IMG/VR virus record: IMGVR_UViG_3300028581_000020
Span: 32,001-96,000 of that record
Strand: one strand, 5' to 3'
Source of the DNA: a virus
DNA length: 64,000 nucleotides
Shown: piece by piece, positions 1 through 62,834 of the stretch
How the letters are laid out: every line of letters starts with the position of its first letter
How positions within the stretch are numbered: position 1 is the first letter of the stretch
Made by a program: the position numbers and the translations under genes
The notes under the pieces: generated by a model
What the model was told of the DNA's origin: nothing
Databases searched by the model: none
What the model saw: the letters and a program-made list of their open reading frames with translations, nothing else

Positions 1-1
1 A

Positions 2-76
2 GTTGACGATACTGGGATTCCTTTTACATATATCGGAAATGAAGTTGAAAAAGAAGTCAAGGACTTGCTTAAGTAA
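2..76 (+). CDS. 3' end of small protein with C-terminal EVEKEVKDLLK helix motif (partial)
   Basis: Frame 2 reads VDDTGIPFTYIGNEVEKEVKDLLK-TAA; the stop overlaps the ATG at 76. Confidence 0.75.
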   Translation, partial: VDDTGIPFTYIGNEVEKEVKDLLK

Positions 77-432
77 TGAAACTCAAATACTTCGATCTGG
101 CAAGACAGCTCTCTGAGAAATCCGACCACCACACGTATAAAATTGGTTGCGTCATTGTTCGTAAAAATCGCATAATTGGAATGGGCTGTAATAAAATGAA
201 AACCCATGTGGCTTCTCCACACAAATGGAAACATATTCACGCAGAATTTGATGCCATTCTTTCGACTCGAAATAAAGAGGACCTTGTTGGTGCGAGCGTT
301 TATGTATTCCGCGCAAGGAAAGACGGAACGAACGCCATTTCAAAACCGTGTCCATCTTGTAAAAATATGTTGCAATCTGTAGGTGTCTCTGATATCTTCT
401 ATACAGAGGACGGTGGATATGGGAAAATTTAA
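76..432 (+). CDS. zinc-dependent cytidine/dCMP-deaminase family protein
   Basis: HAE and PCPSC zinc-binding motifs. Confidence 0.85.
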   Translation: MKLKYFDLARQLSEKSDHHTYKIGCVIVRKNRIIGMGCNKMKTHVASPHKWKHIHAEFDAILSTRNKEDLVGASVYVFRARKDGTNAISKPCPSCKNMLQSVGVSDIFYTEDGGYGKI

Positions 433-637
433 AATAGGGCAATTGATTGAGAGTTCTGCGCATCCCGGTAATATTACTCTAGATAAAATAATTACGGACA
501 TTAAAGAAGAAATTTATATTTGTAAAAATGTAGTAAATGGTGCTCAATTGTACCTTCCTTTTAGTTTTGTCGATAACCGTTACACTTTACATAAATCTTG
601 CCAAATTGAAGAAGAAGTGAAGGATTTATTGAAATGA
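419..637 (+). CDS. small protein, C-terminal helix family (QIEEEVKDLLK)
   Basis: Likely start ATG 419 (MGKFKIGQ); shared C-terminal motif. Confidence 0.75.
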   Translation: MGKFKIGQLIESSAHPGNITLDKIITDIKEEIYICKNVVNGAQLYLPFSFVDNRYTLHKSCQIEEEVKDLLK

Positions 638-858
638 GCTTTAGAGTGGAAATTGGGATGGTATTTCGAGTTCCGCAAGGACTCCAAAGCAGCGGTCCCT
701 GGCACTTCGAATACCTAGGCAACGGTAACTTTAAAAATCTAGAAATTAATAAAATTATTAGCTATGATCCAGACCATTCTTTGTGGGAATCTTATTATGT
801 TCCAAACTATAAAAAAACTAAGGAGATTAAAGATGAAATTTCTACTCTTCTGTCTTAG
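634..858 (+). CDS. small protein, C-terminal helix family (EIKDEISTLLS)
   Basis: ATGA overlap with the previous gene; shared C-terminal motif. Confidence 0.75.
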   Translation: MSFRVEIGMVFRVPQGLQSSGPWHFEYLGNGNFKNLEINKIISYDPDHSLWESYYVPNYKKTKEIKDEISTLLS

Positions 859-1255
859 CCTTTTACCTATTGCCGCACATGCTTGGGGAGAAGTTGATGG
901 TTATCTAGAAGCTCGCAAATATTTTAATGCAAATTATCCTGGTCATTTTGATGCCACAGGAGATCCACAATTATACGGCGTAGATTTCCAATTTAACTTT
1001 CGGCTTGTTCCCAAATATTTTACACTAATTGCCGGAGCCAGGTCTAATGGTAATGCCCACGGCTTCTCTCAAGCAGCCGGACGGGCTGGTATTGAAACGC
1101 ATTGGAAAATGCCCTTTGGTGGTCCGCGCATTGACGTTGGAGTTATGCACGAATCGCAACATAATTTTGAATATGAACAAGGCCTGAACGTTCCCTATCG
1201 CTTCTATACGGGAGAATGGCTGTATGTCCGATACAATTTTGGAAATAAGCCGTAA
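833..1255 (+). CDS. exported protein, possible small outer-membrane beta-barrel
   Basis: AAGGAG upstream of ATG 833; signal peptide MKFLLFCLSLLPIAAHA; alternating aromatic strands ending WLYVRYNF. Confidence 0.6.
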   Translation: MKFLLFCLSLLPIAAHAWGEVDGYLEARKYFNANYPGHFDATGDPQLYGVDFQFNFRLVPKYFTLIAGARSNGNAHGFSQAAGRAGIETHWKMPFGGPRIDVGVMHESQHNFEYEQGLNVPYRFYTGEWLYVRYNFGNKP

Positions 1256-1257
1256 TT

Positions 1258-1509
1258 ATGATGCAAGTTATTACCGTATATAACGGAACGGTTCTAAAAA
1301 ATAAAAATACCGGGACGAAGTGGACCTTTGTTATTGAACCTAATGAGATGTATTGGCTTCGGAATGGGACACATAAATATCCAGTAAACAGCGATGAAGT
1401 TACAAAACGTGAAAATTCCGATCAATACGAGGCGTCAATTCCTGATTTTTTTATCGACATTACAAAAAGCAATGAAATTGAAAAAGAAGTGAAAGACTTG
1501 TTGTCTTGA
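1258..1509 (+). CDS. small protein, C-terminal helix family (EIEKEVKDLLS)
   Basis: ORF track; shared C-terminal motif. Confidence 0.75.
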   Translation: MMQVITVYNGTVLKNKNTGTKWTFVIEPNEMYWLRNGTHKYPVNSDEVTKRENSDQYEASIPDFFIDITKSNEIEKEVKDLLS

Positions 1510-1718
1510 AATCAGCGGATAAAATTGTAGCGGTCAACGATTCCAAAGGTATAACGTATTATGCCTTTAATTTTGACAGTCAAATGTATTGTGCTTATTT
1601 TATGGACTCTGTAAATTTCTATTCCTTTCATAGCGGCTGGCTTCCTATAAATGACGAGGCCCGGAGAATTCTTAAACAACACGAAGTTAATGCTGAGATC
1701 AAGAGTCTATTAAAATGA
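1506..1718 (+). CDS. small protein, C-terminal helix family (EVNAEIKSLLK)
   Basis: TTGA overlap start; shared C-terminal motif. Confidence 0.7.
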   Translation: MKSADKIVAVNDSKGITYYAFNFDSQMYCAYFMDSVNFYSFHSGWLPINDEARRILKQHEVNAEIKSLLK

Positions 1719-1963
1719 AATTTAAAGTCGGTGAATACTACGAAATAACCGAAGACATGCAGGGACACGCAGTATGCCACAAACGCGGCTCGGTTTTTAA
1801 AGTTATGGAATCAACTTCAGAAATTGATAGATTCGTAATCAGATTTATTGATGGAGAAAAAACAACCGGGCCTTGGTATGACGGAATGTCTTGCTATAAG
1901 CACCGCCCAGAACTAAAAAAGGGCGACCAAGTAAAAGAAGAACTTGACAATCTACTAGCGTGA
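1715..1963 (+). CDS. small protein, C-terminal helix family (QVKEELDNLLA)
   Basis: Starts MKFKVGE; shared C-terminal motif. Confidence 0.75.
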   Translation: MKFKVGEYYEITEDMQGHAVCHKRGSVFKVMESTSEIDRFVIRFIDGEKTTGPWYDGMSCYKHRPELKKGDQVKEELDNLLA

Positions 1964-1972
1964 TGATAATAT
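1944..1972 (+). promoter_or_regulatory. sigma70-like promoter upstream of the IMPDH gene
   Basis: TTGACA-17 nt-TAATAT. Confidence 0.5.
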
Positions 1973-1980
1973 AGTTCTAT

Positions 1981-3045
1981 ATGAAATTAGCATTTGATGA
2001 CGTTCTTATTAGTCCCGGATTTTCCCATATCAACTCCCGTAAAGACGTTGACCTTTCCTCCAACCTCGGAAGCTTGGGATTGAAACTCCCAGTAATCTCG
2101 GCTCCGATGGATACTGTAACGGGACCTGCGATGGCAAACGCCCTATCCAAGGTTGGCGCTGCCGCAGCCCTTCATCGCTTTCAAAGTATTGATGATAATT
2201 TGAAGCAGTTTAAAGCTTGTGAAGGAAAAGTCATTGTTTCTGTAGGCTTGAACGATTGGGAACGAACCAGCGCTCTTTATGATGCTGGTGCTGAATATTT
2301 CCTATTAGACATTGCTCATGGAGCGCAAATGCAGGTTGTAGATTGGGTATCTGCCTTTCGGCAGAAGTATTCTGGAGTATGGCTAATGGTTGGGAATTTT
2401 GCTAATGCGAATCAAATCCACACATTTATGACACATACAAATAAAGTAGATAGTTGGAGGATAGGAGTGGGCTCAGGATCGAGTTGCGAAACAAGAGTTA
2501 AGACCGGATGTGGTTTGCCGACTCTTTCAAGCCTTCTCTCCATCAAAGATTATAATTCATCAAATTGGAAGCATCAAATCGAGAATATTGTTGCTGATGG
2601 CGGAATTAAGAATCCTGGGGACGTTGCAAAGTCCTTGGCCGCAGGAGCTTCTGCTGTAATGGTCGGAAAACTTCTTGCTGGAACTGATGAAAGTCCTGGT
2701 GAAATTACAGAAGTCGGAGGATGGTTTGCTCGACCTGATAAATACGCCGTCGAGAAAGAAACCCGAGTTGACGGCATTAAAGTGAAACAATATAGAGGCT
2801 CGGCTTCCGCCGAAAGCTATAAAGATCAAGGAAAAATCCAAGGCTATATTACGACAGAAGGAGTGTCCTTCACAATTCCGTATAAAGGCCCAGTATCTTC
2901 TGTGTTAACCGACATTGAAGGTGGCCTTCGTTCTGCCCTCACCTACGCGGGCGTTTCGAACCTGAAGGATTTTAGACAGTCTGCTGAGCTTGTACAGATT
3001 ACGAATGCCGGAGCTTTAGAAAGCAAAGCACATGGCAAAATTTGA
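1981..3045 (+). CDS. guaB: IMP dehydrogenase / GMP reductase family protein lacking CBS domains
   Basis: FDDVLI, SAPMDTVT, DIAHG, GVGSGSSCETR catalytic Cys loop, ADGGI, YRGSAS. Confidence 0.9.
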   Translation: MKLAFDDVLISPGFSHINSRKDVDLSSNLGSLGLKLPVISAPMDTVTGPAMANALSKVGAAAALHRFQSIDDNLKQFKACEGKVIVSVGLNDWERTSALYDAGAEYFLLDIAHGAQMQVVDWVSAFRQKYSGVWLMVGNFANANQIHTFMTHTNKVDSWRIGVGSGSSCETRVKTGCGLPTLSSLLSIKDYNSSNWKHQIENIVADGGIKNPGDVAKSLAAGASAVMVGKLLAGTDESPGEITEVGGWFARPDKYAVEKETRVDGIKVKQYRGSASAESYKDQGKIQGYITTEGVSFTIPYKGPVSSVLTDIEGGLRSALTYAGVSNLKDFRQSAELVQITNAGALESKAHGKI

Positions 3046-3298
3046 GGTAGGACAGCAATATAGGTTTTCTCCAAAAGGAGTTTATAATCTCACGTTTGAA
3101 GTTTTATCTAAAACTGATGATGGTAGTTATAAATGTATTACGTTGACATTTGAAGCTACTGGAGCGACGCCTACGCCGACTGAAATAGCCGTTCCCGGAA
3201 AAACCTGGACATTTACACCGACTTCTTATATTGAAGAAATTTCAACATCACTAAAAGCCGAAGAAGTAATGGCAGAAATAAAAGAGCTTCTGTCATGA
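3032..3298 (+). CDS. small protein, C-terminal helix family (EVMAEIKELLS)
   Basis: Starts MAKFEVGQ; shared C-terminal motif. Confidence 0.75.
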   Translation: MAKFEVGQQYRFSPKGVYNLTFEVLSKTDDGSYKCITLTFEATGATPTPTEIAVPGKTWTFTPTSYIEEISTSLKAEEVMAEIKELLS

Positions 3299-3447
3299 AG
3301 ATTCTTTGGTTTGTCATATATTATCTAGTGTTATCTGTAATGTGTGCGGGATTTGGACTTATGGGCTGGTATCCGCATTATCGACTTATACTTCTTTCTC
3401 TTTCAGCAATGATGCTTACGAGCTGGACTTTTAGGCTTTTCAAATGA
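3295..3447 (+). CDS. 50-aa membrane protein with two predicted TM segments (not in ORF track)
   Basis: MKILWFVIYYLVLSVMCAGFGLMGWYPHYRLILLSLSAMMLTSWTFRLFK; ATGA overlaps at both ends. Confidence 0.65.
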   Translation: MKILWFVIYYLVLSVMCAGFGLMGWYPHYRLILLSLSAMMLTSWTFRLFK

Positions 3448-4106
3448 AAACATTTCTATTAGCAGTTCTATTATCCTTCACAGTTTTTGCTAAAGAGACT
3501 CGTATTAAAATCGCAGTGATTGACACCGGCATTAAAGATTCTCCAGAAATTACTCCTTATCTATGTAAAAAGGGCCATAAAAACTTTACAAAAGGAACTC
3601 TTAAAGACGTTCATGGCCACGGAACAAATGTGGTCGGTCTTATTGCTAATAACATTAATAAGAATAAAGTATGCCTATTAATTATTAAATACTACCATTT
3701 AGAAACCGATGTGCTTCCTCCTGAAAAATACGGAGAGTTGTTTGATTATGTCAGAAAACAAAAAGTCAAATATATAAACTTTAGCTCTACGGGAAGAAGT
3801 CCTATCGAAGTTGAAAGACAGCAAATTTTAAGCTTGCTTTCTAAAAAAGTACATGTTATAGTTGCAGCAGGAAATGAAGGGATTAATCTGAAATATGACT
3901 GTTCTTCTTTCCCCGGTTGTTATAACATAACGTCTCAGTATTTCCATGTTGTTGGTGCTAAAGACCTGCTAGAAAGTAATTATGGAATGCTGGGACAAGA
4001 GTATGAAAATGGAAAAGATCAGTGTTCTCTAGGCGTTTGTCTTTCGGGATCTAGTCAAGCAACTGCTGTATATACAGGAAAACTTGCGGCAAAGGAGACT
4101 CGATAA
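3444..4106 (+). CDS. exported subtilisin-like (S8) serine protease
   Basis: Signal peptide; VIDTG (Asp), HGHGT (His), AAGN (oxyanion Asn), SGSSQAT (Ser). Confidence 0.85.
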   Translation: MKTFLLAVLLSFTVFAKETRIKIAVIDTGIKDSPEITPYLCKKGHKNFTKGTLKDVHGHGTNVVGLIANNINKNKVCLLIIKYYHLETDVLPPEKYGELFDYVRKQKVKYINFSSTGRSPIEVERQQILSLLSKKVHVIVAAGNEGINLKYDCSSFPGCYNITSQYFHVVGAKDLLESNYGMLGQEYENGKDQCSLGVCLSGSSQATAVYTGKLAAKETR

Positions 4107-5069
4107 GTGTTTAAAGTAAAGAGTAAGAAAGTCTTAGGAACTCTAGAAATTGGTGAAGAAATTCCTGACAGCGACTTTGCTCTGCATTGTCCACAAACTA
4201 ATGAGTTTGTTCAGTTTGAATATGTTGATGGTGAAAAGGTTTACGGACAAACTGAGGTTCGTCCTGGCATCTTTGCCATTTCTAAACGTGCAACGGGTCT
4301 TGTATTAGAAAAAACTTCTTTTGTATCTGACAATATTCTAGAAGAGTTTGTTCACACCCACGACATTCAGGACAAGATTGATTGCTTTTTTAAAAACATT
4401 CACGTATATGCGGAAGAAGGATTTGAAGTTGCTAAGCGTGGGATTTTACTGTGGGGACCTGCGGGCACCGGCAAAAGCACCGCCATCTCCAAGGTATGCC
4501 GTGGTTATGTAAACGACAATAAAACTGCGGTGATTGTCTGGCATACGGACAAATTTGAACCTCAAGTAATTAAGGGATTTATTAAGCATTTTAAATACGT
4601 TGGAGTTGAAAAAATCATCTTTGTTGCTGAAGACATTGGTGGAACAGAGCAGGAAAATGCCCGTTTTCGTAGTGACGCGTCTCTTTTATCTCTTCTGGAT
4701 AACCAAGAAAAGACTTTCACTATCCCAACGCTTATCCTGGCCACTACGAACTTTCCAGAAGCATTCCTAGCAAACTTAACAAACCGGCCTAATCGTTTTG
4801 ATGATAAGATTCAAGTCGGGTATCCTGATAAAGAAAGCCGAGGGAAACTCCTTAGCTTCTTCACAAAAGGTGCAGCAACTCCTGAAGACATCTCTCTAAT
4901 CCAAGACAACAAATGTAAAGAATTTACCCCCGCCCATATTCGAGAAATCCGTATCCGGTCCCGTATCTACTCTAAAACTATTAAACAAGTGATTACGGAA
5001 ATGCTTAAAGAAATTGCGGAATATAAAGCGATGTTCCAGGATAAGAAGGCCATGGGATTCAATGACTAA
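4107..5069 (+). CDS. AAA+ ATPase (classical AAA clade, single domain)
   Basis: Walker A GPAGTGKS, Walker B FVAED, sensor-1 ATTN, Arg finger RPNRFD. Confidence 0.9.
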   Translation: MFKVKSKKVLGTLEIGEEIPDSDFALHCPQTNEFVQFEYVDGEKVYGQTEVRPGIFAISKRATGLVLEKTSFVSDNILEEFVHTHDIQDKIDCFFKNIHVYAEEGFEVAKRGILLWGPAGTGKSTAISKVCRGYVNDNKTAVIVWHTDKFEPQVIKGFIKHFKYVGVEKIIFVAEDIGGTEQENARFRSDASLLSLLDNQEKTFTIPTLILATTNFPEAFLANLTNRPNRFDDKIQVGYPDKESRGKLLSFFTKGAATPEDISLIQDNKCKEFTPAHIREIRIRSRIYSKTIKQVITEMLKEIAEYKAMFQDKKAMGFND

Positions 5070-6928: not shown

Positions 6929-7087
6929 ATGAAGTACATTATTCTGGCCCTAGCAATTTCTGCCTGTTGTTCCCATCCTCCTAAACGTGTCGTGCCTAAA
7001 GGACATAAAACGTCTGCACATAAAAAGGCACCAAAAGTCCATAAAACCCCTCCAGCACGTTCAGTTAAGGTTCGAGGGGACGTATGA
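6929..7087 (+). CDS. small basic lipoprotein (not in ORF track)
   Basis: AAGGAG SD; MKYIILALAISAC lipobox followed by a K/H/P-rich tail; TTGACA at 6881. Confidence 0.6.
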   Translation: MKYIILALAISACCSHPPKRVVPKGHKTSAHKKAPKVHKTPPARSVKVRGDV

Positions 7088-7242
7088 CTCGCCAAGATTT
7101 AGAAGCTATGGACGTTCCTGACGCCCCTAGCGCCTTAGAGCTTGAGATGTTTTTAAACGACGTTCTCGATTTTGAGCCCTCATATCCAGATGAAGTTCAA
7201 AAGCTTAAGACCTGGGCAAAAGATCTATTGGAGCGTTTGTAA
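7084..7242 (+). CDS. 52-aa acidic hypothetical protein (not in ORF track)
   Basis: ATGA and TAATG overlaps with its neighbours. Confidence 0.55.
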   Translation: MTRQDLEAMDVPDAPSALELEMFLNDVLDFEPSYPDEVQKLKTWAKDLLERL

Positions 7243-9591: not shown

Positions 9592-9606
9592 GAAAGGAAA
9601 TAAAAT

Positions 9607-9903
9607 ATGATTGTTCTTGACAAACTTAAAAAACTTATGGTATATTGTAATGAACAGGGAGTAATGCTTCCGTTACTACATGATCCAATTAAAAAGGCCC
9701 CTTCTGTGTCTCTGACATTCCTTTTCATCTCAGGGAATGTCGTTCTTGCCGGGCTTCTCGGTAAAGCCGCAGGATTCTTCGGCGGCATTGATATCTCACA
9801 AGCTCTCTATTGGTTTGGTATGTGCGCAGCTTTATATTTTAGTCGTAGCTTTTCTGGCGACGGCAAACAACAAAACATCTCAAACGATGAGAAAAAGGAA
9901 TAA
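9607..9903 (+). CDS. small membrane protein (holin candidate)
   Basis: Two hydrophobic segments and a charged C-terminus. Confidence 0.5.
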   Translation: MIVLDKLKKLMVYCNEQGVMLPLLHDPIKKAPSVSLTFLFISGNVVLAGLLGKAAGFFGGIDISQALYWFGMCAALYFSRSFSGDGKQQNISNDEKKE

Positions 9904-9905
9904 TA

Positions 9906-10814
9906 ATGAATAAGCTACTAATACTGTCCGGCCTTCTTTCAATTACTGCCCTAGCACAGGTTCCTCTATCCAAAACTGATATTGTTCTATCAGAAAAAAA
10001 CACGTTAGTGTTTAATACAGACTTTAATAGTCGTGATGTTGCTAAATTATCTCAGAATGCTCGGGATATGGACGCGGCCTTACCGTCACAAGAGCCTATT
10101 TTTCTTGTTATGTACTCGCCAGCAGGTAGTATCGACGCCGGTCTTGAGCTTATCGAAACGCTTACAAGTCTCAATCGACCCGTCAATACCCTATCTATCT
10201 TTGCCGCTAGTATGGGGTTTCAAACCGTCCAAGGTTTGGGTGAACGTCTCCTGGTAGCCAATGGTACGCTCATGAGCCATAAGGCCACCGGAGGATTTTC
10301 CGGTGAATTTCCCGGACAGCTAGACAGCAGATATTCTTACTATCTAAAGCGAATTGCTCGATTGGATGAGAAAGTTGTTGCTAGGTCTAAGGGAAAGCTT
10401 ACGCTAGAGAAATACCGTTCCTTGGTGGAAAATGAACATTGGTGTGACGGTGAAGATTGTGTAAAAGAAGGTCTTGCCGACAGGGTTGTTAAGGCGTCGT
10501 GCGACTCTACGCTGGCCGGAACAAATGACGTTGTTCTTGCTAAGTTTATGTTTGCCGGAGCATCAATACAAGTCAATGCTGTTAGATCTAAATGTCCACT
10601 AATCACTGGAATTTTGTCTGCTAGCGTTACTATTAATGGTGAAAACATGTACAAAGAAGCTAAACCTCAAAAAGACCCTGTCGTTGTGGATTATTATACC
10701 CAACAAGCCCAGCCGGTTCTTTCAAAAGAAGAGATTGCACAGTTGGTTATTCGGGTTGACAAAATTCTTGACGATAATAGCGGCACAAATCGTCAAGTAA
10801 TTCGAGGCTACTAA
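9906..10814 (+). CDS. exported ClpP-fold serine protease
   Basis: Signal peptide ending ALA-Q; SPAGS, AASMG (catalytic Ser), LMSH (His). Confidence 0.75.
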   Translation: MNKLLILSGLLSITALAQVPLSKTDIVLSEKNTLVFNTDFNSRDVAKLSQNARDMDAALPSQEPIFLVMYSPAGSIDAGLELIETLTSLNRPVNTLSIFAASMGFQTVQGLGERLLVANGTLMSHKATGGFSGEFPGQLDSRYSYYLKRIARLDEKVVARSKGKLTLEKYRSLVENEHWCDGEDCVKEGLADRVVKASCDSTLAGTNDVVLAKFMFAGASIQVNAVRSKCPLITGILSASVTINGENMYKEAKPQKDPVVVDYYTQQAQPVLSKEEIAQLVIRVDKILDDNSGTNRQVIRGY

Positions 10815-12657: not shown

Positions 12658-14544
12658 TTACTCCTCAGTCGGCAGTTGTTCTCCAACAGCTTGTCTCGCT
12701 GCTGGGTTTTGTAATATCGTAAATAGTGCGGCATTCTTAGCCATCTGATTCTTATCAGAAAGCGCCGTGCGTAAAGCCTCTCCGACTTTTCCTAGTCCGG
12801 GGGTATTTTGTAGCTTATCTGCAATAAACATCAAGTTGTCGTCGCTGGCAGTCGTTAGCGCACGATTGAAATTTGGTAGTGCTCTGGCGGCCTTCCCTGC
12901 CAAGTTTGCGGCCTCAATTGGGATACCCCTACCAGTCGATACACGACCAAAACTAGCTACAGATATAAGATTATTAAATACGTTACCATGTGGGTCAGTT
13001 CCCAGGGCTGTATGTACGGTGGCGGCTTTGTCGGCTTCATCACGAATTTGCTTAAAGAAAGAGTTTTTATCAACTCCCATTCTATCAAAGATAGTTTCTA
13101 ATTGTTTACCTTCTTTAGATGCTTCGAATTTACGAACGGCTTCAGACGATTCTAATTGCTTAAAGTTTTGTTTTAATTTATTCAAAAGCTCTGTAGAATC
13201 TAAGGCTTTAGTTCCAGGAAGTTCCGATTTATTAATTAGATTCTTCAATTCGTCATAAACCTTGGTTTCGCCCGTCTTTAATTGTCCATAACGAACATTA
13301 GAAAGGCCTTCAGGACGAGCTTTTCCGATGATGGTTTCCGGAATCATTTCGCGGAACTCGGCAAAACGTTTAGCAGCTTTAGCGTATTCTGGAACTTGGT
13401 CATTAAGACGGCTCATAATATTTCGACTAAGATTCTGTAGATTTTCTCTTGCGGCTCGGGATTCTGGATTTAAATTTGCGGCAAGGTATTTAGATGCGTC
13501 GTCAAGCTCTGCTCGTAAAGAACGCACTTGATCTGGGGTGAATTCGAAATTAGGCTGTGAGTAAATCTTACGGAAAATCTTTGAAATAGTATTATCTGCG
13601 TCAATAGCAGGGTTATTGAGGAATGCCTTTTCTAATTCTTGTGCCGATTTATTAAGATCTGCACCAATATTAACCTTAATACCCTTTGCGGTTGCATTGG
13701 CAATGGAATCACCAACAGCCTTCCCGAGCATGTCGTCGGCGGCATTAATTTTATTCAACATAACTTCTGCGGCCTGACCTGGTTTAGACGCAAAAGCTTC
13801 TTTATTGGCAATATCAGTTCCTTCTTTACCGACATCAAATGCGTATTTCATTTGTCTGAGAAGTGCTGGGGCTTTATCTTTGTCCGGGACTTTTTTAAGC
13901 AGGGCGGCAGCGCCAGCTTTAGCCCCCATACCTAGAGCGCCTAATGTACCAAAACCCGCACCCCACTTAGCGCCACTTTCAGCGCCCTCAAGTCCGGATT
14001 CCAGGAGTTTTTTACGACTATCTTCAGTATCAAGGTTTCCTTCAGACTGCGTGAGTCCTAGGATTCCTCCCGTAACGCCTCCGACGCCAGCGCCCTTAGC
14101 GACACTTCCGGCCATGCGAGCAAGAAGAGGAAGCTTTGTTGCGCCTTGTGCGGCCTTGCCAATAGGCAAGAGAGCGCCCATGCCAATGCTACCGGCAATA
14201 TTACTAATCGTACCAGCAGTCGGACTTCTTTTCATTGCATCTTTGGCTTCTTTTTCACCAATCTTCTGATATTCGCGATATAACTCGGTCCAGTCTTTGC
14301 TAGAATCCCCGCCCATTGAATCGGGAAGAATCTTGGCAAGCGAAGCCCCAACAGCACCAGAAGCCTCATCGGCAAGACCACCAGAAAATCCTTGAGCCGC
14401 TTGAATTGCGCTGTCATACAAAGTCTCACCGACAGCGTTGGCACCTTCTTGAATACGAGATCCAATAGAGGGACCTTCGAGGCTTTGCTCTTCAAATCCA
14501 TCATCTAAACCGACATCAATAAAACCATCATCAAGTTTTGGCAT
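12658..14544 (-). CDS. putative internal virion / ejection protein
   Basis: Gly/Ala-rich hydrophobic N-half, helical C-half; position at the end of the tail operon. Confidence 0.6.
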   Translation of the reverse strand: MPKLDDGFIDVGLDDGFEEQSLEGPSIGSRIQEGANAVGETLYDSAIQAAQGFSGGLADEASGAVGASLAKILPDSMGGDSSKDWTELYREYQKIGEKEAKDAMKRSPTAGTISNIAGSIGMGALLPIGKAAQGATKLPLLARMAGSVAKGAGVGGVTGGILGLTQSEGNLDTEDSRKKLLESGLEGAESGAKWGAGFGTLGALGMGAKAGAAALLKKVPDKDKAPALLRQMKYAFDVGKEGTDIANKEAFASKPGQAAEVMLNKINAADDMLGKAVGDSIANATAKGIKVNIGADLNKSAQELEKAFLNNPAIDADNTISKIFRKIYSQPNFEFTPDQVRSLRAELDDASKYLAANLNPESRAARENLQNLSRNIMSRLNDQVPEYAKAAKRFAEFREMIPETIIGKARPEGLSNVRYGQLKTGETKVYDELKNLINKSELPGTKALDSTELLNKLKQNFKQLESSEAVRKFEASKEGKQLETIFDRMGVDKNSFFKQIRDEADKAATVHTALGTDPHGNVFNNLISVASFGRVSTGRGIPIEAANLAGKAARALPNFNRALTTASDDNLMFIADKLQNTPGLGKVGEALRTALSDKNQMAKNAALFTILQNPAARQAVGEQLPTEE

Positions 14545-16229: not shown

Positions 16230-17305
16230 TATGCAATACTCCCGGAGTTACCGAATCCCGAGCCGGAAGAATTTCCTTTTATAAGTTTTTTTGCCGAATT
16301 CTCTAGTTCTTTGTCTTTCAATCTCTTCAAAATCTCATTGTTTTGGAGATAATTAGCACCGGCTCCTAGCCCAGAACCAACACCACTACCAATCCCAGAC
16401 CACATTTGTGCTGTAGAATTTGCATTATTTTGGTCATTTGACGCCTTACCTTGAAGAGCATTTGCTTTGCGTTCGGCCTGTGCTGCACGATTTGCATATT
16501 CTTGCGCTTCTGCGCTTCTTTGACGATTTAGTTCTTGATTGGCCTGTGCTGTATTTTGATCTGAGGCCTGTTGTGCGGCATTTAGATTGTATTTTTGTGC
16601 TTCATTTGAAGAATTAGTATTGCGCGTTTGGCGAGCAATTTGATTTTGTAAATTAAAACGTGACATTTCATCAGCAGCGGAAGCCTTGGCTTGTGCAATC
16701 GTATTATCTTGTCCGCGAATGCTACCGGACATATTACCGTATTTATCTAGGGCGCTTAAAGACGCTCGGGAAGCCTCTGCCGCTAGACGGTCAGCTTCTT
16801 CTGCTTGTTGGTTTGCACCGCTTTGTGCTGCTTGTAATTGAGCAACTAGCTCTGCGCCAGAACCACCCATACCACGTTGTTGTAGTTGTTGGAGAATTTG
16901 TCCACGTTGTCCTTGAACATCACGTTGAACTTTATTACGCATTTCATTGAATGCTGCTCTCTCTTCAGGACCAATTCCGGTTTCGGAGCGGTCTTTTAGA
17001 AGCTGCAAAGCGCTCATCTGAGCTTCACGAAGACTGGGATCTTCCTGTACTTGCGCTGCTTGCGATACAGCATCACCAAGGTCTTTTTCTAATTGAGGAG
17101 TTAAAACCCCAACAGACTTGAATTTTTCTAGAATGATTTCTCGTTGAAGATCAGGGCCAGCGCCAATAGCGTCAATTTCTGCCATAGCAGCATCGAGGGC
17201 CTGCTGCGCTTTTTCTCTGTCTCCACGAGACGAAATGTTGCCAATAACACCACCAGCAATGGGGGCTAAAGCACTACCAATAGCGAGAGCTGTTCCGACT
17301 GCCAT
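16229..17305 (-). CDS. putative DNA pilot / ejection protein
   Basis: Hydrophobic Gly-rich N-terminus; Q/A/N-rich coiled coil. Confidence 0.6.
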   Translation of the reverse strand: MAVGTALAIGSALAPIAGGVIGNISSRGDREKAQQALDAAMAEIDAIGAGPDLQREIILEKFKSVGVLTPQLEKDLGDAVSQAAQVQEDPSLREAQMSALQLLKDRSETGIGPEERAAFNEMRNKVQRDVQGQRGQILQQLQQRGMGGSGAELVAQLQAAQSGANQQAEEADRLAAEASRASLSALDKYGNMSGSIRGQDNTIAQAKASAADEMSRFNLQNQIARQTRNTNSSNEAQKYNLNAAQQASDQNTAQANQELNRQRSAEAQEYANRAAQAERKANALQGKASNDQNNANSTAQMWSGIGSGVGSGLGAGANYLQNNEILKRLKDKELENSAKKLIKGNSSGSGFGNSGSIA

Positions 17306-25069: not shown

Positions 25070-26325
25070 TATGAATTCCTACGCCACCCGTTCCATTTAC
25101 CGTAACGTAAAATACTGTGTGTATTATTAACTTTTTTTGCAGCGCCTTCTACTCGATTAGATATCATCTTATTTTCAGCGCTAATAATGTCTTGAATCTT
25201 AGCATTTGTAACTTGTAGTCCGGCTTGATCGCCAATTGCTGCTAATACTCTAGCGGAGCTTCTTTCTGCCAGCCCGTTATGAAGATCCGATGGGATTTGC
25301 GGGATAATACATTCTCCGGCTGTGCAAATATAATCACCAATTTCAAAATTATCGGGAACTACCCCACTAGAAAATGTAATTTGATTGCCAGAAATTGCAC
25401 TATTTGATAGTAGAATGTCAAATTTATATGTTTTATGCGCTCCGGGGGTTTGTAGAAAGTCGATTTTTGTATTATTCGCGATATTATCGGGAATACTGTC
25501 AAACTGAACCACTTGTAATGGACTGATAATAATAGCATCCTCGTTTACAGTAGAGAAATCTGTTGTCACAATCGAGTACGAGACAGTTACGGTGGCAGTT
25601 GAGGGAGTTCCATTTGATGCTGAATATTCTCCGTTGGAATTTATAGCGTTCACTAGATTGGTAGCTGTCAAAATTGAAGATGCGCCAATTAAAAACTCGT
25701 TACTTAAAGGAGATCCTGTTACGGCGGTAAACTGCTGTTCTCCGATAGTTAAAACGTCGCCATCGGCAATCGAAGCATTGTCAATTTCGATATTTTTTAG
25801 GAATGCCGTGGCCGTTGCTGCTCTATTAATTGGAACCAACTGGTTTGGACGCATGAAATAGTACATAACAAGCGAGCCCGTTGGAGACTGATTTGCTCCA
25901 GGGGTAATCACAATGTCAGACCCTTCCAAATAAAATCCCTGAATTACGTCTGGATTCGCTGCATTTTGCTGGAAGAAAGCCTTTTGACCTGCGTCAATTT
26001 GCGTCATTTCATACAAATTACCGTAGTCTTGACCGGGAATAATTTGGTTATCAGCATAAAACACGTCACGAAGTTTATCACCAATAGCACGCTTAGGAAT
26101 AGCATAGCGAGACTTATTAGATTGTAACGGGACAACAACGTACGATACAAAATATTCTTCGTGGTGCTCAAGAATAGCGGGAACTTGTCCGATCATCATC
26201 TCCTCGTTAGCAAAATCGAGCAAATCCTGTTCGGAAAAGGTCGCAGAAGCTATTGGAAACGAGATCTTACGTTTTAGGGCAGCAATAAGCTGCGTGCTAT
26301 TCATCCAAGACGTTGCATTTGCCAT
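25069..26325 (-). CDS. putative head-tail adaptor (tail tubular A-like)
   Basis: Helical N-terminus (LLDFANEE), YAIP, IPQIP..LH; upstream of the nozzle gene. Confidence 0.55.
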   Translation of the reverse strand: MANATSWMNSTQLIAALKRKISFPIASATFSEQDLLDFANEEMMIGQVPAILEHHEEYFVSYVVVPLQSNKSRYAIPKRAIGDKLRDVFYADNQIIPGQDYGNLYEMTQIDAGQKAFFQQNAANPDVIQGFYLEGSDIVITPGANQSPTGSLVMYYFMRPNQLVPINRAATATAFLKNIEIDNASIADGDVLTIGEQQFTAVTGSPLSNEFLIGASSILTATNLVNAINSNGEYSASNGTPSTATVTVSYSIVTTDFSTVNEDAIIISPLQVVQFDSIPDNIANNTKIDFLQTPGAHKTYKFDILLSNSAISGNQITFSSGVVPDNFEIGDYICTAGECIIPQIPSDLHNGLAERSSARVLAAIGDQAGLQVTNAKIQDIISAENKMISNRVEGAAKKVNNTHSILRYGKWNGWRRNS

Positions 26326-26334
26326 GGAAACTCC

Positions 26335-26715
26335 TTAGGCTTTCTTTGCTTTTAGAGCCTCTTTTTTGGCTTGAAGTGAAGCGAGAAGTTCATCAATTTG
26401 CTCTTCTGACATTTCTTCACCTTCCATGTCATTTTCCGGCTCACGATCTTCGCCGTCATCGGCAATCTCACCAAAACCACCCGCCTGACCTTCAACAATC
26501 TCTTCGGCTTTTTCTAGACCAGACTTCAGCCCCTCGGGAGAGTCGGCGGCAACCGAAACTTTCTTAAGGCCCTGAAGAGGTTCTTTCATAGCACCCATAG
26601 CTTCAGAACGAAGGCTGCTAAGAACAGACTTTTTGGCATCCTTTTCCATAGGGTCCATTTCACAGTCTTTGCCACCTTTAAGCGACTTTAGCTTTTTTAA
26701 CATTTCCATTTTCAT
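26335..26715 (-). CDS. hypothetical charged protein
   Basis: ORF in operon. Confidence 0.6.
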   Translation of the reverse strand: MKMEMLKKLKSLKGGKDCEMDPMEKDAKKSVLSSLRSEAMGAMKEPLQGLKKVSVAADSPEGLKSGLEKAEEIVEGQAGGFGEIADDGEDREPENDMEGEEMSEEQIDELLASLQAKKEALKAKKA

Positions 26716-26724
26716 ATTAATTCC

Positions 26725-26961
26725 TTACTTAAGGTTTAGTGATGCAGAGCCCGAGCCTGCGCCAGAAGCCGCGATTGCTTGCGTAGTAGTGCGCGTAGCA
26801 ATTTCGATCTGAGCGGGAGCACCGGCAGTAATCTGAAGAAGAAGGTTTAGGACTTGCTGGACTACTTCATGGGGTTTGGTGCTGTCTAGTTGTAGTTGCT
26901 GCGTCACTTGTCCGCAGTCTAGGGCTTGAGTCTCGATACGAATCATTACATAACCGGCCAT
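26725..26961 (-). CDS. hypothetical protein
   Basis: GGAG SD upstream. Confidence 0.6.
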   Translation of the reverse strand: MAGYVMIRIETQALDCGQVTQQLQLDSTKPHEVVQQVLNLLLQITAGAPAQIEIATRTTTQAIAASGAGSGSASLNLK

Positions 26962-26970
26962 AATATCTCC

Positions 26971-27420
26971 TTATTTTAGAGCTAACAAAATCAACGTCAG
27001 AACAATTCCAACGCTGTTAATAATATATAGTAAGTTCATGTTTTTATGTTCTGTTATCGTCTTTTCAATAATAACAGGCTTCTCAATGACTTGGTATTCC
27101 GTGATATATTTAGGAATCTCTACGATCTGCACTTCTTTGACAATAACCGGAACTTCGATTTTCTCGATTTGAACTTCTTTAACGACAATAGTTTTTTCAA
27201 CTTCAAAGGGCTCTTTGACAATCTCAGGAATCTTAATTTCTTGTATTTCTTTGACAATGACAGGAACCTCGATCTTCTCAATCTTAATTTCTTGTGGGGC
27301 AGTTTTGATTTGCGACGAAATCACAGGCATTTCGCCGTTCACAATAAGAACTCTGGTTGCATTCATGTTCTCGTCATGCGTATCGCGGATAATTTGGTTT
27401 GAGTCTTTAAGAGTTAGCAT
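26971..27420 (-). CDS. IEKIEVPVIVKE-repeat protein with C-terminal TM
   Basis: Repeated V/I-E/K-P motif; hydrophobic C-terminus. Confidence 0.65.
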   Translation of the reverse strand: MLTLKDSNQIIRDTHDENMNATRVLIVNGEMPVISSQIKTAPQEIKIEKIEVPVIVKEIQEIKIPEIVKEPFEVEKTIVVKEVQIEKIEVPVIVKEVQIVEIPKYITEYQVIEKPVIIEKTITEHKNMNLLYIINSVGIVLTLILLALK

Positions 27421-28970
27421 TATACCGCCGTCGTGATCGCTCTAAATTTCATTGTTAATGCTGAGAATCCCGAATAGTTAGCCGAGGTATACTGAATTTG
27501 TCCGGCGTCCGTAATAGTAAAAACGACAGAAGAGGCGTCGCCCACGGAAGTAATCCCCAATACCCAATCGGCCCCTCTTTGAATACCATTCAGTCTAAAT
27601 TGCTCGAATAAATCACTAGTAGCATCCACAGAAACACTCACCAAAGCTTCAAAACTACGAACAGACGCATTTGAAAACGCAAGACCAGTAACGTTTGCTG
27701 GTGAAGATTGGTTGTTTGCTCCAGAAAATGAGGTTTGGTTAATATCGCCAGTTGAGGCGGTCGGAACTGAAGCCCACGAAAGAGTTCCCGACCCATTAGT
27801 TGATAATACCTGACCAGTTGTTCCACTACTATCAGGGAAAAGAAGGGTCCTATTTGCTGTCAGTGTTTGTGGAATTGAAAAATCGTAACTAAAACCTGAT
27901 CCGTCTGCGTCTCTCATTGAGAGTGTATTGGCGGTTTGGTTCATTTTGAGTGTGGCGGAAAGTCTTGTTCCAGAAAGCCCAGAACCGGAAGCTCCACCAG
28001 TTGGGGAAACGTATAGGTTAATAGCACTTCCGTTTGATCCACGACCAGAAGAGGCCGTAATATTGATATTACCGCCGTTAAGATCTGATCCGGTTCCAGC
28101 AGCACTGGAAGAAATAGATATTGCGCGACCAGGAACTCCAGCACTGGGAGTCGTCACCGAAATTGCGGGACTTGTATTGTCAAAATTAAGGTTTGTGTTG
28201 ATAGCTACAGACGCTAAATTAGATAGCGCAGTATTTGCTCCAGAGCCAGAAGGCGTTGTCCAAGTGCCATCAGCACGTAAGAAATTAGACGTTCCACCAC
28301 CAGATGCGGGAGCAAGACCCTTTAAGGAAGTGGTAAAGTTATCTAGGAGTGCAGTTACCTGTGTTCCGGTAAGGTCTGATGGGGACGTTGAGCCGCCTGT
28401 AGCGTTACCTTTAATAGTGGTGGCCGCCATGTTTGCAAGTTTTGCGTTAGAAACTGCGTTATTTGCAATAGTTGCTGCAGCAGATCCCGGACCAGAGGCG
28501 GTTACATCGCCAGTAAGGTCGGTAATATAATTACCAGTGGACTGCTTGCCGTTTAATTGTGTTTGAATATCAGAAGTTACTCCTGATAGGTATTGAAATT
28601 CTGAGCTTGTTACAGAACCATCTGCGATTTTAGTTGCATCAATTCCAGAAGAAAGAGTTGTTGCCCCGGTATTACTAATGGTAACAGCTCCGGACATGGA
28701 AACCGCTGTGGCTAAATTTGAAGAATTACCAACAAAAATTTGGCCGTCTGTCAAAGAATATCCGCTGTCGGTGTTTACCCAAGCGCTACCATTCCATACC
28801 CAAATTCGACCAGTATCAATGGCAACGCGAGCATCACCAGTAGTATTTCCAGAGGAAGGCAAAGCCGCCTGATTAGCGACAGCAGATTGCCAGGTGATTG
28901 CGCCACCACCTCCACCACCACCTACGAGGTCGAACTGGCCTGTTAGGCAATTGTATCGGTAACCGGCCAT
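27420..28970 (-). CDS. tail fibre-like protein
   Basis: G/S/T-rich; fibre motifs IDATKIADG, GVTSDIQTQLNGK, GQVLSTNGSGTLSW. Confidence 0.7.
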   Translation of the reverse strand: MAGYRYNCLTGQFDLVGGGGGGGAITWQSAVANQAALPSSGNTTGDARVAIDTGRIWVWNGSAWVNTDSGYSLTDGQIFVGNSSNLATAVSMSGAVTISNTGATTLSSGIDATKIADGSVTSSEFQYLSGVTSDIQTQLNGKQSTGNYITDLTGDVTASGPGSAAATIANNAVSNAKLANMAATTIKGNATGGSTSPSDLTGTQVTALLDNFTTSLKGLAPASGGGTSNFLRADGTWTTPSGSGANTALSNLASVAINTNLNFDNTSPAISVTTPSAGVPGRAISISSSAAGTGSDLNGGNINITASSGRGSNGSAINLYVSPTGGASGSGLSGTRLSATLKMNQTANTLSMRDADGSGFSYDFSIPQTLTANRTLLFPDSSGTTGQVLSTNGSGTLSWASVPTASTGDINQTSFSGANNQSSPANVTGLAFSNASVRSFEALVSVSVDATSDLFEQFRLNGIQRGADWVLGITSVGDASSVVFTITDAGQIQYTSANYSGFSALTMKFRAITTAV

Positions 28971-32027: not shown

Positions 32028-32036
32028 ATCTCTCCT

Positions 32037-62773: not shown

Positions 62774-62782
62774 GTAACGTTG

Positions 62783-62818
62783 GGGCCCCTGGGGGTAAGG
62801 GAACAGGGGCCCGTTTTT
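62783..62818 (+). terminator. intrinsic terminator
   Basis: GGGCCCCTG/CAGGGGCCC stem followed by TTTTT. Confidence 0.6.
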
Positions 62819-62834
62819 ACTAAAGAGGGCATGT

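What the first reader, a model, noticed from the sequence alone, without database searches (positions are those of the whole stretch)
2..3298. Seven divergent small proteins share one C-terminal helix: a candidate tag or adaptor system
Seen: seven ORFs end as EVEKEVKDLLK (2-76), QIEEEVKDLLK (419-637), EIKDEISTLLS (634-858), EIEKEVKDLLS (1258-1509), EVNAEIKSLLK (1506-1718), QVKEELDNLLA (1715-1963) and EVMAEIKELLS (3032-3298). All fit [EQ]-[VI]-x-x-E-[VIL]-x-x-L-L-x-stop at an identical distance from the stop, and six of seven have Lys at -14. The LL codons vary synonymously (ttg ctt, tta ttg, ctt ctg, ttg ttg, cta tta, cta cta), so selection acts on the peptide, not on a DNA repeat. The upstream ~60 aa are beta-rich and barely alignable; three begin KF[KE][VI]G and a fourth has the related FRVEIG, like small SH3-type barrels. 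The interspersed enzymes (deaminase, IMPDH) lack the motif. Inference: a library of variable target-binding domains on a constant amphipathic docking helix. It could recruit targets to a shared partner (phage AAA+ ATPase or host protease), act as a capsid-loading signal, or drive hetero-oligomerisation. The array probably continues upstream of the window.
Basis: partly seen in the sequence, partly recalled or inferred. Interest (0 to 1): 0.9.

Follow-up and report, generated by a model that had tools for sequence, protein, structure and literature searches.

The report
Shared C-terminal helix on phage proteins
An uncultured phage ends about 40 small, otherwise very dissimilar early-region proteins with the same 14-residue C-terminal helix, whose DNA also carries the ribosome-binding site and start codon of the next gene; the peptide is clearly under selection, probably as a common handle, but its partner is unknown.

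Summary
The window is bases 32001-96000 of a 104.5-kb IMG/VR virus record. The seven ORFs are the last of 40 + strand copies in record bases 1-35,298. All end in K-x3-[IVT]-x2-E-[VIL]-x2-[LI]-L-x-stop, with no internal copy and none in the other 69 kb.

Synonymous codons between copies are as random as codon usage predicts, so selection acts on the peptide, not on a DNA repeat.

The K-D codons are biased to AAG-GA, a Shine-Dalgarno site. The last codon usually overlaps the next start (NTGA). The tag is therefore also a translational-coupling junction.

Two members fold (AF2) as an SH3-like barrel followed directly by the helix. Without the tag, most bodies show no detectable similarity. At least two carry bodies of another kind: a DUF6745 domain and a two-segment hydrophobic, apparently membrane-spanning body.

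No homologue exists outside this phage among 1.84 billion representative proteins.

The best reading is a conserved protein-protein handle on fast-diverging early proteins.

Notes from this scan describe the same kind of array, with other tags, in other uncultured phages. I did not check those notes.

The parts
1..76 (+). 3' part of a 27-codon mini-ORF (record 31993-32076) that is little more than the tag (tag codons 32-73, stop 74-76). Its AAGGAC supplies the SD, and its TAA overlaps the ATG (TAATG) of the dCMP deaminase gene.
76..432 (+). dCMP/cytidine deaminase gene, untagged. Its ribosome-binding site lies inside the preceding tag.
   Evidence: Pfam PF00383, E 3.5e-14
419..637 (+). Tagged small gene (72 aa; starts M-G-K-F-K-I-G). 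Tag 593-634; ATGA overlap with the next gene.
634..858 (+). Tagged small gene (74 aa). Tag 814-855, variant ...EISTLLS without K-D. The next gene (833-1255) starts inside this tag, with AAGGAG in the tag's K-E codons.
833..1255 (+). Untagged 140-aa protein with a signal-peptide-like start (M-K-F-L-L-F-C-L-S-L-L-P-I-A-A-H-A). No Pfam family.
1258..1509 (+). Tagged small gene (83 aa). Tag 1465-1506; TTGA overlap with the next gene.
1506..1718 (+). Tagged small gene (70 aa, TTG start). Tag 1674-1715; ATGA overlap with the next gene.
1715..1963 (+). Tagged small gene (82 aa; starts M-K-F-K-V-G-E-Y-Y). AF2 gives five strands plus helix 66-81. Tag 1919-1960, variant ...ELDNLLA, not coupled. Its L-D-N codons form TTGACA of a promoter-like site (1944-1972) 9 nt before the IMPDH-family gene.
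1981..3045 (+). IMP dehydrogenase / GMP reductase family gene, untagged.
   Evidence: Pfam PF00478, E 1.9e-76; PHROG 9582
3032..3298 (+). Last tagged gene of the array (88 aa; starts M-A-K-F-E-V-G). Tag 3254-3295; ATGA overlap with a 50-aa hydrophobic ORF (3295-3447).
3444..4106 (+). Subtilase (S8) family protein with a signal-peptide-like start. Context only.
   Evidence: Pfam PF00082
4107..5069 (+). Classical-clade AAA ATPase, closest by sequence to VAT/Cdc48/p97 D1 modules, with a roughly 100-aa N-domain. A candidate reader of the tag by family logic only; untested.

Best explanation
The seven ORFs are the 3' end of an array of about 40 small genes in the early, replication and nucleotide-metabolism region of an uncultured phage with no close relatives.

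Shown:
- Each gene is a fast-diverging body, mostly a small SH3-like beta barrel that begins M-K-F-K-V-G-x-x-Y, plus a fixed 14-residue C-terminal amphipathic helix: K(-14), I/V/T(-10), E(-7), V/I/L(-6), L/I(-3), L(-2), one more residue, then stop.
- The helix pattern is kept by purifying selection on the amino acids.
- The copies are old and are not homogenised by gene conversion.
- The same DNA also works at the RNA level. The codons for K(-5) and D(-4) are biased to AAG-GAY, giving AAGGA about 9 nt before the next start. The last codon plus TGA forms ATGA, GTGA or TTGA, so most tags hand the ribosome to the next cistron, including nrdA, nrdB, an RNA ligase, a nuclease and the deaminase.

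Inferred:
- The conserved face (hydrophobic stripe -10, -6, -3, -2 with the invariant charges K-14 and E-7 beside it) is a protein-protein interface common to all members. It would be a handle that plugs many different small proteins into one partner, either a phage or host protein or each other.
- The fixed end position follows from the junction geometry and perhaps also from recognition of a free C-terminus.

Which partner, and what follows from binding (recruitment, timed unfolding or removal by the phage's Cdc48-like AAA ATPase, or loading into heads), is not known.
For: Count, position and strand: 40 copies, all stop-anchored and on the + strand, none internal.

Peptide-level selection:
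- Conservation has period 3. Information at codon position 3 is 0.1-0.3 bit at -6, -3 and -2, against 2.0 bits at position 2.
- Leu codons at -3 and -2 use all six codons in genome-like proportions (chi-square p = 0.054).
- Between copies, same-codon frequency at identical residues equals the codon-usage expectation (Leu-3 0.185 vs 0.204; Leu-2 0.195 vs 0.202; all sites 0.52 vs 0.46). No tag pair exceeds 83% nucleotide identity.
- Tags with no gene coupled behind them still keep K-14, E-7 and L-L.

The tag behaves as a module:
- With the tag removed, only 3 pairs among 36 bodies reach BLASTP E < 0.01, and 29 bodies are singletons.
- One member carries DUF6745 (E 5.8e-15).
- One has two hydrophobic, presumably membrane-spanning segments, and others look helical by eye.

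Structure:
- AF2 helix 66-81 (pLDDT 85-90) in one member and 63-76 (pLDDT 92-95) in another.
- The body is SH3-like: Foldseek Fyn/Csk SH3, E about 0.015, TM 0.5-0.64; VIA FeoA, Z 6.2.

Junction role:
- K-5 codons are AAG 22: AAA 11 against 396: 799 in the genome (Fisher p = 1.2e-4), while K-14 is 5: 34.
- 28 of 40 tags have an NTGA overlap with a downstream ORF of 40 aa or more, and 35 of 40 have a start within 10 nt.
- Tag remnants are kept in front of genes: mini-ORFs before nrdA and the deaminase, a start-less tag in frame after the nrdA stop, and a 7-codon M-D-K-D-L-L-K micro-ORF before record 31359.
Against: - No binding was tested.
- There are no relatives, so a genome-wide co-variation test of tag against partner is impossible.
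- The helix starts one or two residues after the last beta strand, so its hydrophobic face may pack on the barrel as a structural cap instead of being free for a partner.
- Many bodies share an N-terminal strand motif, and profile-profile comparison gives weak homology (probability 50%, E 1.7e-4). Much of the set may therefore simply be one old paralog family.
- The link between an SD-like word in the tag and actual coupling is not significant (18/10 vs 5/7, p = 0.30).
- In the one apparently membrane-spanning member, the positive-inside rule read by eye would put the tag outside the cytoplasm. That would not fit a single cytoplasmic reader (inference only).
Confidence: 0.5

Rival explanations
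The helix is part of the fold (barrel plus C-terminal helix, as in Sso7d or chromo-type small barrels) and is conserved for stability. There is no shared partner, and each protein acts through its own variable surface.
For: - The helix follows the last strand after one or two residues and is modelled with high confidence.
- Most members share the N-terminal M-K-F-K-V-G-x-x-Y strand.
- Tagless profiles show weak homology.
- Three paralog pairs are still detectable.
Against: - The tag sits on bodies of another kind: DUF6745, a body with two hydrophobic segments, and helical-looking bodies.
- The tag is far more conserved than any core position of the barrel. Two charged residues are invariant in 39-40 of 40 copies, while the surfaces they would touch are unalignable.
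- Mini-ORFs of 23-27 codons carry the tag with no barrel.
Confidence: 0.22
2. The primary function is at the nucleic-acid level. The tag is a plug-in gene junction (SD, spacer and overlapping start, or in some copies a promoter) that lets cassettes be gained, lost and shuffled without breaking the operon. The peptide is a tolerated by-product.
For: - AAG bias at K-5 (p = 1.2e-4).
- NTGA overlaps.
- Tag remnants kept before nrdA, the deaminase, record 9784 and record 31359 after their bodies were lost.
- Promoter-like TTGACA-N17/18-TAnnnT inside 6 of 12 uncoupled tags against 4 of 28 coupled ones (p = 0.04). Ten of 59 listed + strand sites lie in the 5% of the sequence that is tag.
Against: - Strict period-3 conservation, with free third positions at -10, -6, -3 and -2.
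- Synonymous identity between copies equals chance, so there is no nucleotide-level constraint and no recombination-driven homogenisation outside the SD.
- The invariant K-14, I/V-10 and E-7 lie upstream of the ribosome-binding site.
- Uncoupled tags keep the peptide.
- Other genes of this phage couple by NTGA without any tag.
Confidence: 0.1
3. Capsid-loading signal. The helix binds the inside of the procapsid (coat, scaffold or portal), so the small proteins are packaged and injected into the next cell. This would be the role of the T4 capsid-targeting sequence or an encapsulin cargo peptide, placed at the other end of the protein.
For: - The phage has a ClpP-type head maturation protease (Pfam PF00574; PHROG 94), so it has proteolytic head maturation.
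- The overall layout is the same: many divergent small proteins with one short terminal signal (T4 CTS: PMC3012670).
Against: - All tagged genes lie in, and are translationally chained to, the replication and nucleotide-metabolism block, on the strand opposite to the structural block.
- Forty cargo species would be unprecedented.
- There are no virion data.
Confidence: 0.08
4. C-terminal degron or unfoldase handle. The tag is read by the phage's own Cdc48/VAT-like AAA ATPase (window 4107-5069), or by the MoxR-VWA pair at record 1433-3984, to unfold, remodel or remove early proteins on schedule. This would work like the C-terminal MIM1 helices of ESCRT-III paralogs read by Vps4.
For: - The AAA ATPase belongs to the classical unfoldase clade (VAT/p97/Afg2, E 4e-15) and lies 0.8 kb after the last tag.
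- The MoxR and DUF2201 VWA/metallopeptidase pair directly precedes the densest run of tags.
- Precedent for a Leu-rich C-terminal helix read by an AAA N-domain: PMC7240154.
Against: - Only neighbourhood and family logic support it; no test was possible.
- MoxR homologues are common in large phages (238 records), so the pair is not specific to this lineage-specific tag.
- No MIT domain was detected in the AAA protein by Pfam.
- The last residue is variable (K, A, S, E, F).
Confidence: 0.1

Closest known systems
T4 capsid-targeting sequence (CTS) on the internal proteins IPI, IPII, IPIII and Alt (PMC3012670)
   Same: One short, conserved terminal peptide on several otherwise dissimilar small phage proteins. 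The genes sit in fast-changing parts of the genome.
   Different: The CTS is N-terminal, is cleaved by the prohead protease and sits on a handful of proteins. Here the tag is C-terminal, on about 40 proteins of the replication block, with no evidence of packaging or cleavage, and it doubles as a translational junction.
PeSL cassettes (early promoter plus stem-loop) between small genes in the hyperplastic regions of T4-type phages (PMC2839356, PMC4122927)
   Same: A repeated element at the boundaries of small variable genes that carries expression signals for the next gene and could help modular gain and loss.
   Different: PeSLs are non-coding and conserved as DNA. This element is coding, is conserved as a peptide with randomised synonymous sites, and supplies mainly a ribosome-binding site and an overlapping start.
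MIM1 helices of ESCRT-III paralogs read by the MIT domain of the AAA ATPase Vps4 (PMC7240154)
   Same: A family of paralogs that each end in a short Leu-rich amphipathic helix with flanking charges. An AAA ATPase gene is present in the same genome.
   Different: There is no sequence relationship, no MIT domain was detected, and no binding has been shown. The bodies here are not homologous to ESCRT-III.
Poxvirus ankyrin proteins with a C-terminal PRANC/F-box-like domain (own knowledge)
   Same: A viral multigene family with variable target-binding parts and a constant C-terminal adaptor element.
   Different: PRANC is a domain of about 40-50 residues with a known reader (host SCF). Here the element is a 14-residue helix with an unknown reader, in a bacterial virus.
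Small SH3-like barrels with a C-terminal helix, such as Sso7d/Sac7d and chromo-type domains (own knowledge), and FeoA
   Same: The architecture of the two modelled members: a five-stranded small barrel followed directly by one helix.
   Different: There is no sequence similarity. In those families the helix is a structural element and is not more conserved than the barrel.

Membership tests
Any Pfam or PHROG family (for the tagged proteins) | A significant profile match over the protein | tested here: not met
   Of 36 members, 35 have no meaningful Pfam match. One has DUF6745 (E 5.8e-15). PHROG hits are all weaker than E 0.004.
SH3-like small beta-barrel fold (body) | A five-stranded barrel superposable on solved SH3 or Tudor-type domains | tested here: inconclusive
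   AF2 models have pLDDT 77 and pTM 0.62-0.63. Foldseek best hits are Fyn and Csk SH3, E 0.015, TM 0.49-0.64. VIA gives FeoA and RecD2 SH3 at Z 6.2, below the tool's Z 8 caution line. Only two members were modelled.
T4 capsid-targeting sequence | N-terminal position of the signal | tested here: not met
   The motif lies only at -14 to -2 from the stop.
T4 capsid-targeting sequence | Proteins are packaged in heads and the signal is cleaved by the prohead protease | not testable with these tools
   This needs virion proteomics. A head maturation protease gene is present.
PeSL-type mobile regulatory cassettes | A non-coding intergenic element conserved at the nucleotide level (promoter plus stem-loop) | tested here: not met
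   The element is coding. Synonymous sites are at chance identity, with mean nucleotide identity 57% and maximum 83%.
ssrA-like ClpX C-degron | Non-polar last residues (L-A-A-COOH type) | tested here: not met
   The last residue is K in 20, A in 9 and S in 8 copies, with E and F in the rest.
Vps4 MIT / MIM1 system | A MIT three-helix domain on the AAA ATPase | tested here: inconclusive
   Pfam finds only the AAA core in window 4107-5069.
Bacterial beta-clamp binding motif (Q-L-[SD]-L-F) | The consensus pentapeptide at a terminus | tested here: not met
   Position -9 is variable, and there is no aromatic residue at -3 or -2.
Translationally coupled gene pairs (NTGA overlap, SD inside the upstream gene; review PMC12548453) | A 4-nt stop/start overlap and an SD-like word 5-10 nt upstream | tested here: met
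   28 of 40 tags have an NTGA overlap with a downstream ORF of 40 aa or more. AAGGA or a similar word occurs in 23 of 40. AAG bias p = 1.2e-4. Coupling itself was not measured.

The most novel reading that the evidence does not exclude
A phage-encoded C-terminal 'address code'. About half of the genes of the early block carry one 14-residue helix that is read by a single phage-encoded machine, most plausibly the Cdc48/VAT-like AAA ATPase next to the array. That machine gathers, remodels or removes a whole set of host-takeover proteins on schedule. The tag's DNA has been co-opted as the universal ribosome hand-over junction, so new genes inserted into the array acquire address and expression signals in one step. 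Notes from this scan report similar arrays with other tags in other phages. If those hold, this would be a general and undescribed way of organising phage early proteomes.
Probability: 0.15. Interest if true: 0.85.

Novelty: new variant of a known kind. Interest (0 to 1): 0.62.

Why it matters
Small early phage genes are the largest pool of proteins with unknown function in biology, and they are usually treated one by one.

Here about 40 of them in one genome share an invariant, peptide-selected end. That implies one common step for all of them: binding, sorting, turnover or assembly. Identifying a single partner would therefore give a functional foothold for 40 orphan proteins at once.

The dual coding is also a clear natural example of a protein motif and a translation-initiation region written in the same 45 nt. 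It suggests how gene arrays can grow without breaking polycistronic expression.

Practically, a 14-residue portable tag with a dedicated reader would be a useful tool for targeting proteins during phage infection.

Tried and rejected
Searches for relatives, all negative:
- A nucleotide pattern for E-V-K-D-L-L-K-ATGA in IMG/VR gave 7 single chance hits and no multi-copy contig.
- The same pattern in JGI metagenomes gave 42 single hits. Ten of these are the unrelated Ref-type HNH nuclease family, which happens to end ...EVKDLLK.
- A profile of 29 members found only the phage's own proteins among 5.8 billion clustered proteins.
- The same profile against 1.84 billion representatives found only the phage's own proteins, plus two spurious repeat proteins.
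- The 90% clusters hold 1-3 members, from about 10 near-identical contigs of 63-124 kb.
- The three strain substitutions seen all lie outside the tag, but this has no statistical power.
- The helicase found no relative in IMG/VR. A structural protein found only a widespread domain.
- The nearest isolated phages share about 28% identity in PolB (Salinibacter phages, cyanophages).

Other negative results:
- BFVD and the ESM Atlas gave no informative match.
- There are no tRNAs, so there is no suppressor to read through the stop before the tag after nrdA or the internal TAG of record gene 12739.
- Literature searches found no description of such an array.

Ideas rejected:
- A DNA repeat or gene conversion.
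- A cationic membrane-targeting helix of the MinD type: the tag is net acidic or neutral.
- A ClpX degron, a clamp-binding motif and a PRANC domain (see Membership tests).

Full report
WHERE THE WINDOW LIES

The window is bases 32001-96000 of a 104,527-bp IMG/VR virus record. The record has a block of about 40% GC from 1 to 62 kb, and a second block of about 58% GC from 64 to 100 kb.

Bases 1-44 kb are one + strand block. It holds a MoxR AAA ATPase and a DUF2201 VWA/metallopeptidase, nrdA, an RNA ligase with an intein, nrdB, a PD-(D/E)XK nuclease, ThyX, an ERF recombinase, a DnaB-like helicase, a family B polymerase, a PNKP-type phosphatase, a kinase, a dCMP deaminase, an IMPDH/GMP-reductase-family enzyme, a dUTPase, an S8 protease, a classical AAA ATPase and a ClpP-type head maturation protease. 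The structural genes follow on the - strand.

THE OBSERVATION

They are the last seven of 40 copies. In the record, 40 + strand reading frames between bases 1 and 35,298 end in K-x3-[IVT]-x2-E-[VIL]-x2-[LI]-L-x-stop.

- K-14 is present in 39 of 40 copies.
- E-7 and L-2 are present in 40 of 40.
- Positions -10, -6 and -3 are always aliphatic (or Thr at -10).

The chance rate of a looser pattern is 6 in 19,286 ORFs in 1.16 Mb of unrelated phage DNA. That gives P = 3.5e-15 for the seven copies in window 1-3300 and P = 5e-69 for the 40. The other 69 kb of the record has none. Shuffling C-termini gives 0.015 matches against 35 observed. Without anchoring to the stop, 40 of 41 matches in six frames still lie exactly one residue before a stop, so the motif is never internal.

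One detail differs from the finding. 'ORF 2-76' is a 27-codon mini-ORF, not the tail of a longer gene.

PEPTIDE OR DNA?

Conservation has a strict period of three. At -6, -3 and -2 the second codon base carries 2.0 bits and the third 0.1-0.3 bit. All six Leu codons are used at -3 and -2, in proportions not different from the genome (p = 0.054).

The stronger test is pairwise. Where two tags have the same residue, they use the same codon as often as codon usage alone predicts: 0.185 vs 0.204 and 0.195 vs 0.202 at the two Leu positions, and 0.52 vs 0.46 overall. No two tags exceed 83% nucleotide identity.

So the copies are old, they are not homogenised by gene conversion, and what is kept is the amino-acid pattern.

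THE SECOND LAYER: A TRANSLATIONAL JUNCTION

Genes of this phage use AAGGAG-type Shine-Dalgarno sites. In the tag, K-5 and D-4 are written AAG-GAY in most copies, which puts AAGGA about 9 nt before the next start.

- Lys at -5 uses AAG 22 times and AAA 11 times, against 396 : 799 in the genome (p = 1.2e-4).
- Lys at -14 uses AAG 5 times and AAA 34 times.

The last codon ends in A, G or T followed by TGA, giving ATGA, GTGA or TTGA. Twenty-eight tags overlap in this way a downstream ORF of 40 aa or more, and 35 have a start within 10 nt. The genes launched in this way include nrdA, the RNA ligase, nrdB, the nuclease, a glycosyltransferase-like gene and the deaminase.

Tag remnants survive where the body is gone:
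- 23- and 27-codon mini-ORFs before nrdA and the deaminase.
- A perfect tag without a start codon, in frame just after the TAA stop of nrdA.
- A 7-codon M-D-K-D-L-L-K micro-ORF before record 31359.

In the window, the tag of 634-858 lacks K-D. There the next gene starts inside the tag (ATG 833), with AAGGAG in the tag's K-E codons.

The statistical link between an SD-like word and coupling is not significant (p = 0.30). Other genes of the phage couple by NTGA without a tag. The junction role therefore explains positions -5, -4, -1 and the fixed distance to the stop. It does not explain K-14, I/V-10, E-7, V/I-6 or L-L, and uncoupled tags keep all of those.

Some uncoupled tags also contain promoter-like TTGACA-N17/18-TAnnnT sites that end 7-9 nt before the next ATG. 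This holds for 6 of 12 uncoupled tags against 4 of 28 coupled ones (p = 0.04). Window 1944-1972, before the IMPDH-family gene, is one of them. These are consensus matches only.

WHAT THE PROTEINS ARE

Thirty-five of 36 members have no Pfam or PHROG family.

AF2 with the paralogs as alignment gives, for two members, four or five strands followed after one or two residues by the tag helix, with pLDDT 85-95 in the helix. The barrel resembles SH3, Tudor and FeoA domains at modest scores.

Many members begin M-K-F-K-V-G-x-x-[YW]. With the tag cut off, only three pairs among 36 bodies are still similar by BLASTP. Two tagless sub-profiles match weakly over the N-terminal 34 columns (probability 50%, E 1.7e-4). 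Most members are therefore probably one very old, very diverged paralog family.

The tag is also found on a DUF6745 domain, on a 121-aa protein with two hydrophobic, presumably membrane-spanning segments, and on longer proteins that look helical by eye. It therefore behaves as a module.

On a helical wheel, the conserved residues form one face. L-3, I-10, V-6 and L-2 make the hydrophobic stripe, and K-14, E-7 and usually E-11 lie along one edge. This follows directly from the sequence.

DISTRIBUTION

No protein outside this phage and its near-identical contigs matches the family in 5.8 billion clustered proteins or 1.84 billion representatives. Nucleotide pattern scans of IMG/VR and JGI metagenomes find no other multi-copy contig. 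The nearest isolated phages share only about 28% identity in PolB.

Comparative tests, such as co-variation of the tag with a partner or dN/dS, were therefore impossible.

HOW IT MOST LIKELY WORKS

Shown: a peptide-selected amphipathic helix fixed at the C-terminus of about 40 early-block proteins, with its DNA reused as a ribosome hand-over junction.

Inferred: the conserved face is a common protein-protein interface. My reasons are as follows.
- Two charged residues are invariant, while the surfaces they could contact within each protein are unalignable.
- The tag occurs on bodies of another kind.
- The tag is much more conserved than the barrel core.

I put about 0.5 on a shared handle, whether the partner is a common protein or the tagged proteins themselves. 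Sub-cases are an unfoldase or degron handle for the phage's Cdc48/VAT-like AAA ATPase, which would work like the MIM1 helices of ESCRT-III read by Vps4 (PMC7240154), and a capsid-loading signal like the T4 CTS (PMC3012670).

The main rival, at about 0.22, is a purely structural cap on a paralog family. It is favoured by the very short link between the last strand and the helix.

A purely nucleic-acid function, at about 0.1, is contradicted.

COMPARISON WITH KNOWN SYSTEMS

The closest are the T4 CTS, T4-type PeSL cassettes (PMC2839356, PMC4122927), MIM1/Vps4 and PRANC proteins. The array is a member of none of them (see Membership tests). I found no description of such an array in the held literature.

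Notes of this scan report arrays of small early proteins with other shared terminal helices in other uncultured phages. They are unchecked AI notes and I did not test them. They suggest the phenomenon is recurrent.

VERDICT

This is a lineage-specific, undescribed tag whose reader is unknown.

Noticed in passing
window 30086-64000 and beyond (record 62086-63400 and 100348-101662): A unit of about 38 kb at 58% GC, with its own structural and replication genes, lies between two direct copies (1,315 bp, 94% identical) of the 3' module of a fibre gene of the 40% GC phage. It is either an assembly chimera of two phages that share a receptor-binding module or a real nested element. Contigs of 63, 85 and 124 kb carry the same tagged proteins.
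   Followed up: partly
L007:9713-9787 (record coordinates): A perfectly conforming tag (…K-S-L-E-I-S-Q-E-L-Q-D-I-L-K-stop) lies in frame directly after the TAA stop of nrdA, with no start codon of its own. Its AGGA and ATGA launch the next tagged gene (9784). It is either a relic of a lost body or a read-through extension of nrdA. There is no suppressor tRNA in the record.
   Followed up: partly
L007:12739-12950: A tagged gene of the H-L-P-N-Y-K-K linker type is interrupted by one in-frame TAG. It is an apparent pseudogene whose tag, with TTGACA-N18-TAGAAT, still precedes the next gene.
   Followed up: partly
L007:7622-7651, 12919-12948, 17166-17195; window 1944-1972: In tags that are not coupled by an NTGA overlap, the I-D-K or L-D-N codons spell TTGACA and the L-L-x-stop codons give a TAnnnT box. 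This box ends 7-9 nt before the next ATG, which would yield near-leaderless transcripts. These are consensus matches only.
   Followed up: partly
L007:6971-7001 and L008:8083-8113 (record 26083-26113): Two tags are followed by the same 29-nt leader (TTCAYTAACRTTCARTCGAGCTTYGCA-ATG). One precedes an 86-aa gene and the other the family B DNA polymerase gene. There are no other copies in the record. It may be a shared translational operator.
   Followed up: no
L007:10528-12738: The RNA ligase gene (PHA02142 OB fold plus RNA_ligase domain) carries an intein with a LAGLIDADG endonuclease.
   Followed up: no
L008:8111-9619 and 9606-10277 (record 26111-27619, 27606-28277): The family B DNA polymerase is split into two overlapping ORFs. 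The first holds the exonuclease domain and the start of the polymerase domain; the second holds the rest of the polymerase domain.
   Followed up: no
window 7084-7242: A 52-aa ORF ends …K-T-W-A-K-D-L-L-E-R-L. It contains K-D-L-L but runs three residues further and lacks the rest of the pattern. It may be a decayed tag outside the array.
   Followed up: no
L114:12430-12708, L134:10686-10988 and eight other metagenome loci: A Ref-type (HNH/Cys-His) nuclease family of freshwater phage contigs ends by coincidence in …E-L-L-x-E-V-K-D-L-L-K followed by ATGA. It is a caution for motif-only searches.
   Followed up: yes
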